This document shows positions 49,401 to 55,400 of a stretch of 64,000 bases of DNA, one piece after another. Below the pieces are notes generated by a model, which worked only from the letters and a program-made list of their open reading frames with translations, made no database searches and was not told the origin of the DNA. This stretch comes from Tubiluchus corallicola (Eukaryota; Animalia; Priapulida), in assembly GCA_030141605.1 (NCBI GenBank), contig JAQGDQ010000277.1, positions 124,001-188,000 on the forward strand, read 5' to 3'. Made by a program: the position numbers and the translations under genes. Every line of letters starts with the position of its first letter. Within the stretch, counting starts at the first letter, position 1.

Positions 49401-52400
49401 GTTTTTTAATCCATTGGAAGAAGTTTGTGCCAAGGTACGTTGATGCAATTTAAGTTCTTAGTTCAATTATTAGAGTAATCGGCTGATTTTTAGAGTAATG
49501 GCTCAGAAAACAGGCAACTTGACCAAGTGCAATGTGTATGCTCTGGTTATAGGCATGAAGCCATGATCCATGATTGCAGAGCCCAAAAGAAAATTTTCTC
49601 ACTTATATTTGTCCATACCTTGCTATTAGCTATTACTTAGCTATTGTGCAGTTGTGCCATCTATGGACAGAAAATGCACACATTACACGAATACGACAGT
49701 TTTCTCTTCCTTTGGTGTAATAAAATGCCATAACGCAAAAATGCTTTTTTAATTGGTAAATGGTAATTTTGTCAGAAAATCTAAGACTAACCTGGCAGTT
49801 GAGTAGCGTCTTATTTTCTCCTGAACCGCGTCACATGTTTTACATGTACAAGGAAGTCCAACACGCTGATGAATAAAAGCCAGGCAGAGACAAACCATGG
49901 GTATGATGATTGCAAACAGTAACAGAAAAACCAGGAACTCAATGTTGAGAGCTAAAGAAATACGATATTCTGCCATTATTTTTGTCTCTGCATTTGATGC
50001 ATAAGTTAAATATGTTTTAGGAGGTCAAGACTTAACGTTTAGTTAAGCCTATTGATTCCATAGGTCTTAACGAAAAATACTGTTTAATGAAATTTAAAGA
50101 TGCATTAGCTTTGTTAACTCATGGCAAGTGGCTGGCAGCATATTATTATATGGTAGTACCTTGTGCCAGGCATTTGGCAGACAGGCATTACCCATCGACA
50201 AGAAAGGAAAAAGTACTACACATTAAATTGTTAGGATCTTAGGAAAAGTTCATGCCACAAAGCCCAGAAAAATACCGCAAAAACTGTGGCCTGTAATAAT
50301 AATGGACGTATGGAAACAAGACTTCCTGAAACCAACCTAAGAAATGAAGACCACCTGACAGATGACCCGTTTGAGGAACATAACCCAAATGATGAGTAGA
50401 AGTATAGCAGGAAAAGTGGAACTAGTTGATGTTCATATAATTGAATCTCTGATAATTCTATAATCAACAGAAACTACAAAAATATTCTGTAAGCTCCTCA
50501 CCGTCAACATCATTGGCTTCCCCACCATCCACACTGCCTCCTCCACCTGGTTTGTCACAGTAAGGAGGTGCAAAGCCGAAGTAACAGAAACAATTTCCTT
50601 TGTCATTACAAACCTAAAATAAACAGTAAACGATTAAAGTGTTGTTAAATCAATTGTTGACAGTTTGAATAAGGACATATGTAGCTGAAGAACTGCACAT
50701 GATTAAACTAATAAGATGACGATATGCCAGTTGGCATTATACACAGTTAGATGTGTGAAAAATCTGTAAACTGGCGGAGTATCTATGGGTTTATGTGGCA
50801 GTCAGTTATGGATTAAAAAAAAACATAAATTAGAAAGATCTAAACGCAACCAGTCAAGTTTTTTCTCTGCTTTCACGGAAATCGTGAACGAAATTTGCTA
50901 CCGGGAAGAGGAGTTAAAAGAAAAAACCAATTTATTTTTAAAAATTTAACGCCAAACAACTGCCTCTGATAGTGGTGTAATTAGGTACTTACTCCATTCC
51001 CGTTACAATCATGAGGACACTGAACCCGCTGCGAGATCTCAGCAGCATTCTGACAGACTTGGTTAACACACATCTAGCGAAATTGCAAAGAAAGTATGTA
51101 AAAAATGTTCTAGTTGTAGATGAATAAATTTTAGAATATTACATGTATTGTCAAAAAAATTATTTGCAGAATACTTAAAAAGAAACAAGCAAATTGTTTG
51201 AAACATTAAATATCTTATTCGTGGTTTAAGTTTTATACAACAGTTAACACAGTTAACAGTTAATCTAGCAAAAATTGCAAAGAAAATATGTAAAAAGCGC
51301 TCCAGTGTAGATGAATAAATTTTAGATTACTACATGTATTGTCAAAAATGATTTATTGCAGGTTACTTGAAAAGAAACAGGCAAAATTATAAAGTTTTCT
51401 GTTATAAAGTTGAAATTCTCAATTTGTGTATATGAACTAAATTGCTTTATTAGATCAAAATTTGTACTTCACTTTTGATCTTTCTTTGTTACTCAAAAGT
51501 TTCTTTACAAAAGAAGATATTTTGCCGAAAAGCAAATGCTAAAATCAGACAGTTATTATAGCACAATAATAGCACAGAAAATCAGGGAAAAATTTAAAAA
51601 CAGCTTCCAATGACCTATGAGTTGATTCATCAATTCAGATGCAGTAACAGTGAAACAAAATGGATGCTGTTATTGAAGAAGTGACAGGTGAAAGGTCGAT
51701 ACTGCAAGCCAAAACAGTCCATTCAGTTGTCGACAGTTGAATGCTGGATAGGTGAAGCATGCTGTGATAGCCAGAGACTCTATTAAGTGGATAATAATAT
51801 CAGGAAGAGCAAGCCCAGTTTGAAGTTTCGAAATTATATGCAAAGTATACCATGCTCTCGCCACACTTGGATCCCGATGGACTATATCCAGGGTCCTGTA
51901 CATCTAACCCCACATTAACAGCTGCAATTCTGCATGTGATCTTGCGGCCATTGACGTATGAGGTTACCGCACCTGAGGTGTGCACCGTGGGCCATCCGAT
52001 CAAGACAGACTTAGAGTTACTCACACAATGCAACAATCCACATTTAACATTCCTACAAGCAAGTGTGCAATGTTGCATTCACGGTTTTAACATTGTTACG
52101 CACTAATGAGTCCACATTTTCACACAACTCTTTTTCTTTTGTAACAATAGTGTACACTTCTTGGCAGTAAATAAATGAAAAGCATGCTAAACTGACTAAT
52201 GCTGGTGATAATTGGCTTTCTAAACTGTTAGTGCAGTAGTAAACACACATCATGCAATGCACGGTGTTCAAAACGGCTTGTGGCTATAATTGTGAGAGCG
52301 TCCTTAGAAGCCATGGGATGGTAAACTCATACCCTATAGTAACATATGCATTTATAGTAATTAGTTGTAGGATTCCAACATACATCATCAGCTTAAACCG

Positions 52401-55400
52401 TTGACAAGTCATCTCTGTCATCTAGTCATGTAGCGTAGATGCAGACACCCATGTTAAACTTGAAGTCTCACTGAATTCTGTGCTTTCGCAACAGCCACCA
52501 GATCACTGTAGACCATTAGCCTTTTATCTTCATATTCAGAAAGCTGACAGCTTCATCAGGAAGGGCGTTAGTTGTCCGCCCTTCCTAGCTAAATTTTAGG
52601 ACCGACAAATGGACAAACTAAAGAAGTTATTATTGTGTCTTTGACTTTTGTATCTCATCTTTTTATTCACGCCAGATAAGCAGGTAAAGATGAACGCTCA
52701 GACATGACTCGGTAATATTTGCATCAGTCATGCTAAATAAACGCTGCTGCACTGAATGAGCTGACAATAAGAGTTCTTTGCTGGCACAGAAAACTTCGAG
52801 ATGACTAGCATCACCGAGTTTGGTGACAGATCAGCCATTTTCTAGACACCACTCTGCATGGGTTGAAATAGAGCAAAACCTACTAACACAAGAACTGTTT
52901 GACTGTTTGTCAAAGTAATCATTATGAGTTTGACCATGGAAAGTAATTAAGGACGCCCTCTGAGGTTAAACTTAAATTCTAACATCTATATCGTGCACAA
53001 AACATCACACATTGAATCATCAGCACACAATACCATGTTTTCGCCACATTTTGCCCCATTCGGTACGTCTCCCGGGTTGTCGACTGTAAGTCCAAAATCT
53101 ATTATAGAAGTTCGACACTTGGCCCTGGCGGGTACCTTGTGCTTGTGCACCTCGTTATATCCCAATCTCAATCTCTCGTCACCTCGCGTACATTGGAGTA
53201 ATCCACACATTACGTTACTGAAACGTGGCGCATTATTAAGAATCTAAAATACACGTGTTGCAACACATGTATGCAATGCATTTGCACGTCCTCTTTCTTT
53301 GAAATGTATTCAAAGGGGCAATAAGTTGCTATATTTTCTATAACACAATAGCAACCATAAACTGAATAGGCCTACTGTTATAAATCAATAATACATACTA
53401 AGTTTGCTACACCTCTATGGCAGACAGTAACTGCTGAAACTATTGCATCTTCACTGGAACTACAATGAAATTTGTATTATGCAAATAAAAAAATAAATTT
53501 TGCTCCATTTTTTGCGCAAGCACTATATACGTATATTATCAACTTGCGCGAAAACAGACGAAGTACTAAAGTCTAAACATAACTCCACATTCCAAAGTTG
53601 AATAACGCAAGAACAACATAAATTCGATGTGCAACATTATTCCTGGATAGAATGCATATATTTATATATATATATACTTACTCAGGTGAACACTTCGTAT
53701 ATTCATCTGTAAATATATTGTGTCCACAATGGCCATAGTATGTGCCTTCAGTGTTGTACTCGAAGCACGTTGAAGGTCCAACAGACGTATAAGAACCCCA
53801 CAATTCTCTGCACTGTGACAAGTGTGAATTACATTTGCCTTCAAAACAATATGCCTATTAAAGTAAAATACTAATTAGTATAAACAACTAGTTTGAAGAT
53901 ATGCCATCTTGCTATAATACAGTGATATTCTGTTTGTGCTTAGCAACTGAGTTGTGTGTTATGGATAGTGTGTGTACTTTTTATAAAAATCGCACATGAT
54001 TAGTAGCAGTAACACAAGATGTTTTTTCTATTTAGCATCCAAATAATTTGCAAATAGTCCTGTCAAGCATGTGACTGTCACTACGTTGGCCAGGTTACAC
54101 TTCAGTTTAAATATCGAATTTATGACTCACAAAATTGACCGACTGAAAATCATTCAGCTTCTTGTAGGTAAATTATTGAAGCAATAAATTTCATACTTGG
54201 TAACGCTAACACAAAAATGCTTAAACACAAAAGCAGGTGGACGGCCCACGTAACAAGCACTTTGGTAAATGTTCAGCAGGTATTAAGTTAAGTCAAAAGG
54301 AAGTAGCTTGGGTGGATAAAAATGGTGAAAAAATTGTCTCGGATACTAGTCTGCCTTCATTCCCGGGGATCAGCTGCTGAATATCAAAAGGTCGCCAAAG
54401 CTTCATTATACTTATTGAACAGTGAAAGCTATGGCTAGCGTTGATGTTGATGTCTACGGAAAAGTGACTCTGGTCATAACGATGTCATCATTTTGCATTC
54501 ACCTAGTATATTAGACATGACGTATGCTCATGTTATTGAAAACAAACATAATTTTATTGGATAAACAAAAATACGGTCTTTAGGCATACTAAGTGCCAAA
54601 AGCAGGCAGAAATCAGAATCCTAAACTTAACGTCAAATGAGGCACAGAACGTAGTCTACTATTACGCGATTAACTCGTAGTAACCAGTATAATTTATGGC
54701 GTGTTCAGACTAGCGAGTTTTCTTACGCGAGTTTTCTCTCTGATGATAACGTCACAGCAAGTGTTGAGCACACGCTTGTCACTGCAAGTTTACTACAAGT
54801 TACTGCAAGTTTACTCGGCGAGCTACTGTGAATTTACTTTGAGAGAAAACTCGCTAATCTATTGGTTACAATTATTGCTTAGGTATTACAGTTTATAAAC
54901 TCCATGGTGCTTCAATATGTTATTTGAGCTTTAATAGCAACTTTTGCTGGTTTCATGTTTTCAAAATTTCTTCTTGGGTGATGTGTTACTAGTTCTATTT
55001 CAGTATGACTATAGTTATATGCTATAGATGAATACCACTTGCCAAATATTACACAGTACAGGTACACCCCGCTTGCCCAAATGCCACAAATCAGATTATA
55101 AGTAATTAATAATTAACTGTATTTAATTCTGAGATACTGCCAACCAACAATTGATACATTGATTTATGCATAAAGATTGATTGCTAATTATGATTTGTAT
55201 TGTATTGTAATATGTACTTTGTTCCGAAATAAAAGTATTCAATCAATCAAAAAACTACACAACTCGCTTGCAAAAGCTACTGATCTAGATTTATCCTACT
55301 TGGCTAAGTGCTTCAGATGCAGATAATTTGACTTACAGCTACAGATCCACACTCCTTTGCCAAATACCCCAGATCCATGGCATTTGGATAAATGCAGCTG

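What the first reader, a model, noticed from the sequence alone, without database searches (positions are those of the whole stretch)
51851..53217. Tandem mutually exclusive exons swap the hypervariable region of an ADAM cysteine-rich domain
Seen: two homologous exons (53217-53034 and 52052-51851) share the scaffold NVxCGLLxC...CR...xGLxVxxPGxxPxGxKCGExM but differ almost completely in between ([22 protein letters not shown] versus [28 protein letters not shown]). Both have good splice sites and open frames, and both run phase 2 to phase 0 (184 and 202 nt). Including both, or neither, shifts the frame. Established: this segment of the ADAM/snake-venom-metalloprotease cysteine-rich domain holds the hypervariable region, proposed as a substrate or partner exosite. 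Inference: one gene makes two sheddases with the same catalytic domain but different recognition surfaces (one charged, one more hydrophobic). I am not aware of this switch in meltrin-type ADAMs. High divergence with conserved cysteines suggests an old, selected duplication.
Basis: partly seen in the sequence, partly recalled or inferred. Interest (0 to 1): 0.85.

Follow-up and report, generated by a model that had tools for sequence, protein, structure and literature searches.

The report
Swappable recognition loop in ADAM protease
An invertebrate's cell-surface protease gene (ADAM) carries two intact, very different copies of the exon for the loop beside its active site; each copy is spliced to the same next exon in a relative's transcripts, so the gene likely makes two enzymes with one cutting site but different predicted target-binding surfaces.

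Summary
Confirmed. Exons A (53217-53034, 184 nt) and B (52052-51851, 202 nt) are intact AG/GT paralogues, phase 2 to 0, 24/61 residues identical, in a catalytically intact meltrin-like ADAM gene. Using both or neither gives an early stop. Contigs of one spliced run of a close relative join each exon separately to the shared exon at 51073. A is seen whole, with its upstream joint supported by a 16-nt loose end. B is seen only over its last 63 nt, so its upstream joint is unproven. No A-to-B joint was listed. All 8 listed variable sites in A are synonymous; none were listed for B. The whole hypervariable region (HVR) lies in each exon (39 and 45 residues): 9/39 identical, against 15/22 in the scaffold, charged in A and neutral in B. 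Other invertebrate loci have one copy with the same splice phases. Mutually exclusive exons are already known in ADAM genes (ADAM23 and fly mind-meld), but I found no report of an HVR swap. A change in substrate or partner is inferred, not shown, and the HVR exosite itself is unproven for ADAMs. New variant of a known kind.

The parts
53034..53217 (-). Alternative exon A: second half of the ADAM cysteine-rich domain with a 39-residue charged HVR
   Evidence: covered whole by an X2 contig and joined to 51073
51851..52052 (-). Alternative exon B: paralogue with a 45-residue, more hydrophobic HVR; same length (202 nt) as the single exon in L001
   Evidence: last 63 nt covered by an X2 contig and joined to 51073
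53682..53854 (-). Shared upstream exon U, first half of the cysteine-rich domain, ends in phase 2
   Evidence: Pfam ADAM_CR E 2e-13; its last 16 nt match the X2 loose end 14/16, the only match of 13 or more in the window
50993..51073 (-). Shared downstream exon D1 (end of the cysteine-rich domain, start of the EGF-like domain), phase 0
   Evidence: joints from both A and B and on to 50613 in X2
50502..50613 (-). EGF-like domain exon
   Evidence: joints in X2
49792..49951 (-). Transmembrane exon
   Evidence: hydrophobic run in the model; joint 50502>49951 in X2
57101..57252 (-). Catalytic exon with an intact zinc-binding motif [11 protein letters not shown] and Met-turn
55578..56593 (-). Three exons: end of the protease domain and the disintegrin domain (56593-56416, 56008-55913, 55709-55578)
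   Evidence: Pfam Reprolysin (weak) and Disintegrin
57439..59460 (-). Five exons: end of the prodomain, furin-type site REKR, start of the protease domain; the gene's 5' end further up was not modelled
46410..49238 (-). Cytoplasmic tail exons (49238 to about 49081, and proline-rich last exon 47026-46410 with 8 PxxP); the joint between them is predicted only
   Evidence: an X2 contig covers 46470-46633

Best explanation
One ADAM protease gene carries two intact tandem copies of the exon for its hypervariable loop, each of which splices to the same next exon, so it likely makes two membrane-bound isoforms with the same catalytic domain whose loops would bind different substrates or partners. Shown: both exons are intact, have the same phases, and each joins exon 51073 in transcript-type contigs; the HVR lies wholly in the exon; A is under purifying selection. 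Inferred: (1) an ancestral single exon was duplicated in this lineage, and A lost 6 residues while B kept the ancestral length; (2) one copy is chosen per mRNA by competing weak splice sites, and double or zero inclusion is cleared by nonsense-mediated decay; (3) the four shared cysteines keep the fold, so only the loop that faces the active site changes; (4) the charged, basic-patch loop A and the neutral loop B pick different targets or co-receptors, probably in different tissues or stages.
For: Frame logic and premature stops. Joints 53034>51073 (contig depth 54.4) and 51851>51073 (29.7) at GT-AG ends in run X2. Both contigs overlap the downstream contig by 30 nt, as two paths merging in a 31-mer assembly graph would. 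The A contig runs through A's end without a break, which argues against a common A>B path (inference). Exon A differences: 6 of 6 listed in X2 and 3 of 3 in X1 are synonymous, 8 distinct sites; about 0.22-0.27 of random changes would be, and the worst case of 6 of 9 gives P 0.005-0.016. HVR limits from PMC4885070 (residues 561-582 of catrocollastatin) map through to the stretch between the CGxLxC and GxxxxGxKC motifs. One copy with the same phases in L002 and L004, the 2 of 4 loci that cover the whole U-to-D1 interval. Both alternative acceptors have the lowest T content (0.35) of 17 acceptors scored (noticed after the fact). The cysteine-rich domain sets ADAM13 specificity in vivo (PMC2173380, abstract). 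In ADAMTS13 the HVR is part of a shown exosite (PMC4885070, passages).
Against: Only one transcript-type run, held as contigs, from a relative about 95% alike; its RNA status is a guess by the tool, and the joints have 27 nt on the short side, under the tool's 31-nt bridging mark. The junction 53682>52052 and the first 139 nt of B were not seen. No variant in B was listed, so B has no selection test. No orthologous locus with both exons from a more distant species was found. No RNA pairing or hairpin scored above shuffles, so the choice mechanism is unsupported. [quoted passage not shown] No substrate is known.
Confidence: 0.63

Rival explanations
1. The exons are mutually exclusive and both useful, but the loop swap tunes adhesion, dimer formation, trafficking or stability, not choice of substrate.
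For: The HVR mediates a stable protein-protein contact in the RVV-X structure, and no mutagenesis proves a substrate exosite in ADAMs (PMC4885070). Worm ADM-2 regulates LRP-1 in a way that does not appear to need its protease function (PMC9187072).
Against: The loop faces the catalytic site in solved structures (PMC4885070), and cysteine-rich domain swaps change protease-dependent function in vivo (PMC2173380, abstract).
Confidence: 0.2
2. B works as a poison or truncation exon: it is included after A, giving a stop at 52046, which lowers expression by decay or makes a secreted protease without EGF domain and membrane anchor.
For: B's upstream joint was not seen. A+B stops two codons into B. 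Secreted splice forms of vertebrate ADAMs exist (recalled).
Against: No A>B joint listed, and the A contig passes unbroken into D1. B keeps an open 67-codon frame with 4 cysteines in the frame a poison exon would not use, with 28/67 identity to L001.
Confidence: 0.07
3. B is a decaying duplicate that is still spliced in as noise; only A matters.
For: B has the longer branch of the two in the tree (3.01 against 1.3) and is further from L001 and L002 than A is; no variant data for B.
Against: Third codon positions of A and B are only 22/61 identical and the introns share no clear similarity, yet B has no stop, no frameshift and keeps both splice sites. Its contig depth is of the same order as A's.
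Confidence: 0.07
4. The pair is an assembly artefact or two neighbouring genes.
For: No whole genome is held for a cross-check; X1 may be the window's own source.
Against: The copies are too diverged to be haplotypes. X1 contigs cover both exons with intron flanks (52872-53253 and 51639-51977, 3 differences each). Both join one downstream exon in X2. No second set of ADAM exons is in the window.
Confidence: 0.03

Closest known systems
Homologous mutually exclusive (tandem duplicated) exons in general (PMC7954323, abstract; PMC9741552, abstract and passages)
   Same: Tandem paralogous exons of equal phase, one per mRNA, fold kept, surface residues near functional sites changed.
   Different: PMC9741552 reports that most substitutions in human pairs are conservative; here 21 of 24 aligned residues in the first part of the loop differ, with a 6-residue length change.
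Human ADAM23 and Drosophila mind-meld duplicated exons (PMC9741552 supplementary sheet S5, one row; PMC5740500 supplementary tables)
   Same: Mutually exclusive duplicated exons in an ADAM gene; listed as same region, convergent.
   Different: Here the protease motif is intact and the ectodomain loop is swapped.
Arthropod ADAM17 (Tace) duplicated active-site-rim exons (earlier AI note e1-9849094, not tested)
   Same: Exon swap predicted to retune an ADAM's substrate choice.
   Different: Other subfamily, and the swap is in the protease domain, not the cysteine-rich domain.
Meltrin subfamily: human ADAM9/12/19/33, C. elegans ADM-2 (PMC9187072, passages)
   Same: Zinc motif, disintegrin, membrane anchor and SH3-type tail motifs are all present.
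   Different: No cysteine-rich-domain exon swap was found in print for them; the two annotated adm-2 isoforms differ at the last exon. Orthology was not tested by a tree.
HVR diversity among ADAM and P-III snake venom metalloproteinase paralogues (PMC4885070, passages)
   Same: The same loop varies; 39 and 45 residues fall in the 27-55 range given for human ADAMs.
   Different: There the variation is between genes; here it is within one gene, by splicing.

Membership tests
Homologous mutually exclusive exons | Adjacent paralogous exons with the same splice phases and lengths equal modulo 3 | tested here: met
   184 and 202 nt, phase 2 to 0, SW 120 against 22 +/- 4
Homologous mutually exclusive exons | Each exon is spliced to the common downstream exon | tested here: met
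   joints 53034>51073 and 51851>51073 in X2, one run, 27 nt on the short side
Homologous mutually exclusive exons | Each exon is spliced to the common upstream exon | tested here: inconclusive
   A: 16-nt loose end matches U 14/16; B: 5' part not covered
Homologous mutually exclusive exons | The exons do not occur together in productive mRNA | tested here: inconclusive
   no A>B joint listed and A+B gives a stop, but contigs drop rare forms
Homologous mutually exclusive exons | Both copies under purifying selection | tested here: inconclusive
   A: 8 of 8 listed sites synonymous; B: no variants listed
Homologous mutually exclusive exons | Tissue- or stage-specific use | not testable with these tools
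   2 runs listed, both contigs, none on record as RNA
Active ADAM, meltrin type | HExxHxxGxxH zinc motif | tested here: met
   [11 protein letters not shown] plus Met-turn; feature from PMC9187072
Active ADAM, meltrin type | Disintegrin, cysteine-rich, EGF-like and transmembrane domains, tail with SH3-binding motifs | tested here: met
   Pfam Disintegrin and ADAM_CR; EGF-like and membrane segments by alignment and inspection; 8 PxxP
Active ADAM, meltrin type | Groups with named meltrins in a phylogeny | not tested
   no named invertebrate meltrin was retrieved; calling L001 and L002 arthropod-type meltrins is recall
Active ADAM, meltrin type | Sheddase activity | not testable with these tools
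   needs an assay
ADAM_CR hypervariable region | Position equal to catrocollastatin 561-582, between two conserved scaffold motifs | tested here: met
   mapped through P0004 to 2dw0_A chain 371-392, assuming an offset of 190, which gives the 22 residues expected; a direct profile search of PDB gave no ADAM hit
ADAM_CR hypervariable region | Acts as a substrate exosite | not testable with these tools
   open question in PMC4885070

The most novel reading that the evidence does not exclude
A single meltrin-type sheddase switches its substrate range by splicing in one of two hypervariable loops: a natural, same-background swap that would show the HVR to be the specificity-setting exosite of membrane ADAMs, regulated by tissue or stage.
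Probability: 0.4. Interest if true: 0.7.

Novelty: new variant of a known kind. Interest (0 to 1): 0.5.

Why it matters
Whether the HVR picks substrates for membrane ADAMs has been proposed from crystal structures but, by the 2016 review read here, not established. This gene offers two naturally evolved loops on one unchanged protease, so the question can be asked with a pair that differs only there. It would also be a third region of ADAM genes, after the membrane anchor and the ADAM17 active-site rim, diversified by duplicated exons. Limits: the splicing principle is well known, the animal is probably not a laboratory model, and no substrate is known.

Tried and rejected
No whole genome was held. 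The run search listed no holder on record as RNA. The upstream exons and the 5' part of B had no X2 cover even at 80% likeness; this is not evidence of absence. Protein searches with B (29 candidates) and U (10 candidates) gave no hit; a third gave 5 distant ADAMs of 8 candidates. The representative-library search returned 2 repetitive, unrelated proteins. The Atlas gave no answer. PDB profile searches with A+B and with five exon rows gave no ADAM hit. AlphaFold models of the isolated exons were unusable, with mean pLDDT 51.7 and 50.0, so no fold search was run. An 8-row tree left A and B unresolved, with no starred branch. Hairpins over the two acceptors were not above shuffles (z -1.2 and -1.1 for the short windows, about 0 for the longer ones). 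The best intron-intron helices were matched or beaten by 2 of 12, 2 of 12 and 6 of 12 shuffles, so a docking-site model is unsupported. Steric exclusion is unlikely with a 981-nt A-B intron, and both exons have ordinary GT-AG ends, so spliceosome incompatibility was rejected. No third or decayed copy was found. Five of the seven look-ups in earlier findings (by place near, relatives, sequence, and two by words) returned nothing. The 2013 Drosophila catalogue of mutually exclusive exons was not held.
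Full report
Observation. On the minus strand, exon A runs 53217-53034 (184 nt) and exon B 52052-51851 (202 nt). Both have AG acceptors and GT donors, open frames and phase 2 to 0. They align with 24 of 61 residues identical, Smith-Waterman 120 against 22 +/- 4 in 2000 shuffles. 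Both continue the Pfam ADAM_CR profile from position 67, where the upstream exon U (53854-53682) leaves off; these two hits are weak, E 0.007 and 0.11. No further copy was found in the window.

The gene. A model of 15 exons with A or B reads open from the prodomain into the tail. It has a furin-type site, the zinc motif [11 protein letters not shown], disintegrin, cysteine-rich, EGF-like and membrane segments. The last joint of the tail reads through only with a weak donor at 49081, and the 5' end was not modelled. With both exons the frame stops at 52046, and with neither at 49813, 703 and 176 nt before the last modelled junction, so both would be decay targets (inference). The features listed for meltrins in PMC9187072 (passages read) are present; orthology was not tested. 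An earlier AI note suggests the genome is from a priapulid worm; I did not test this.

Transcript evidence. The run search listed 2 runs, neither on record as RNA. X1 covers introns and is about 99% alike, so it behaves as DNA; its contigs cover A with both flanks and part of B with its downstream intron. It may be the window's own source. X2 behaves as spliced RNA of a relative about 95% alike: its 4 listed joints all skip predicted GT-AG introns. Two of them are 53034>51073 (contig depth 54.4) and 51851>51073 (29.7), repeated, where 3 records were laid. One contig holds all of A with a 16-nt loose end that matches the end of U at 14 of 16, the only match of 13 or more in the window. The other holds the last 63 nt of B. 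Each carries 27 nt of D1, and the D1 contig starts 3 nt before D1, an overlap of 30 nt as expected where two paths merge in a 31-mer graph (inference). A common A>B path should have broken the A contig at A's end, and it did not. Against this: it is one run, contigs drop rare forms, 27 nt is under the tool's bridging mark, depth cannot rank the two forms, and 53682>52052 was not seen.

Selection. X2 differs from the window at 9 places in A; the 6 listed are all synonymous. The 3 of 3 differences on the X1 contig over A are synonymous too, giving 8 distinct sites. About 0.22-0.27 of random changes would be synonymous; even if the 3 unlisted ones were not, P is 0.005-0.016. Both listed differences in neighbouring exon D1 change the residue, so A is not simply in a frozen region. 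For B, 2 differences in 63 nt (X2) and 3 on the X1 contig were counted but not listed, so no test was possible. B's case is indirect: third codon positions of A and B are 22/61 identical and the introns show no clear similarity, yet B keeps its frame, splice sites and four cysteines.

What is swapped. PMC4885070 (passages read) sets the HVR at residues 561-582 of catrocollastatin, 27-55 residues long in human ADAMs and facing the catalytic site. Through P0004 and the PDB alignment this is the stretch between the CGxLxC and GxxxxGxKC motifs. It lies wholly in each exon: 39 residues in A and 45 in B. Identity is 15/22 in the scaffold, 9/39 in the loop and 3/24 before the loop's central cysteine. 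Loop A has 8 K/R, 5 D/E and 2 H with an HKHK patch, GRAVY -0.82; loop B has 4 K/R and 2 D/E, GRAVY +0.17. Folding the isolated exons failed, so the geometry rests on published structures.

Other animals. A metagenome scan gave 4 relatives among 52 pattern matches. Each has one copy. Only L002 and L004 span the whole U-to-D1 interval, and L003 and L004 are near-duplicates. The acceptor phase is the same as here; L001 has the same 202-nt exon as B. A and B are less alike (24/61) than either is to L001 (30/61 and 28/67), while L001 and L002 share 51/67. This fits an old duplication or fast divergence after it; the tree did not resolve the order. Calling L001 and L002 arthropod-type meltrins is recall. 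No distant species with both exons was found, and no eukaryote genomes could be searched.

How one exon is chosen. Not shown. The A-B intron is 981 nt, both exons are GT-AG, and no hairpin or long-range helix beat shuffles. Both acceptors have the lowest T content of 17 scored, and GCATG occurs 5 times against 1.8 expected; both were noticed after the fact, and linking GCATG to RBFOX proteins is recall. Weak competing sites plus decay of wrong products is the simplest model (inference).

Known cases. Homologous exon swaps tend to keep the fold and change surface residues near functional sites (PMC7954323, abstract). In ADAM genes, ADAM23 and fly mind-meld are listed as same-region convergent cases (PMC9741552, one supplementary row). 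The 18 ADAM rows of one human table name only ADAM23, ADAM15 and ADAMTS13 (PMC5740500 supplement 4), and PMC8373072's supplement rejects the ADAM15 pair (2 of 8 places seen). No ADAM term was found in the main texts of PMC4165533 and PMC9013439 or in 6 supplementary files of PMC7954323. Full-text searches (listings and abstract starts only) showed no HVR exon swap. Gaps: the 2013 Drosophila catalogue was not held, and database isoforms of invertebrate ADAMs could not be inspected, so the pair may already sit unremarked in an annotation. Earlier AI notes describe duplicated exons in arthropod mind-meld and ADAM17. For function, chimeras show that the cysteine-rich domain sets ADAM13 specificity (PMC2173380, abstract), while PMC4885070 says no clear evidence yet makes the HVR an exosite in ADAMs, though it is one in ADAMTS13.

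Verdict. The exon pair is real and very likely mutually exclusive (about 0.85). That it changes substrate or partner recognition is the best reading but untested (0.63 overall). It is a new variant of a known kind, interest 0.5.

Noticed in passing
window 51272-51385 and 51080-51193: The intron before D1 holds a recent tandem copy (about 115 nt, spacing 192) of its own 3' end, with a second AG at 51266-51265 followed soon by a stop. X2 contigs use the true acceptor at 51073.
   Followed up: partly
window 5487-5190 (minus), 31058-31330 and 37982-38545 (plus): Two homeobox genes arranged head to head next to the ADAM gene; Pfam Homeodomain and OAR hits. They look like homeobrain and orthopedia, part of a known conserved cluster (names recalled, not tested).
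   Followed up: no
window 48716-48655 (minus): A possible alternative last exon in the same phase as the long proline-rich one, which would give a short tail; it depends on the weak donor at 49081.
   Followed up: partly
L003:917-1298: In another animal's locus, the acceptor and first 7 codons of this same exon are repeated in 29-nt tandem units; the near-duplicate contig L004 lacks the array.
   Followed up: no
window 47945-48931: Very high X1 depth (up to 2400) marks an interspersed repeat in the last intron.
   Followed up: no
window 53510-53492 with 52884-52866: A 19-bp helix (-19.5 kcal/mol) that would loop out exon A; 2 of 12 shuffles did as well, so it is only a lead for comparative work.
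   Followed up: partly
P0003 and P0005: ADAM-like hits without a listed ADAM_CR domain: one unnamed with Pfam PF00397, one named from the dinoflagellate Symbiodinium natans.
   Followed up: no
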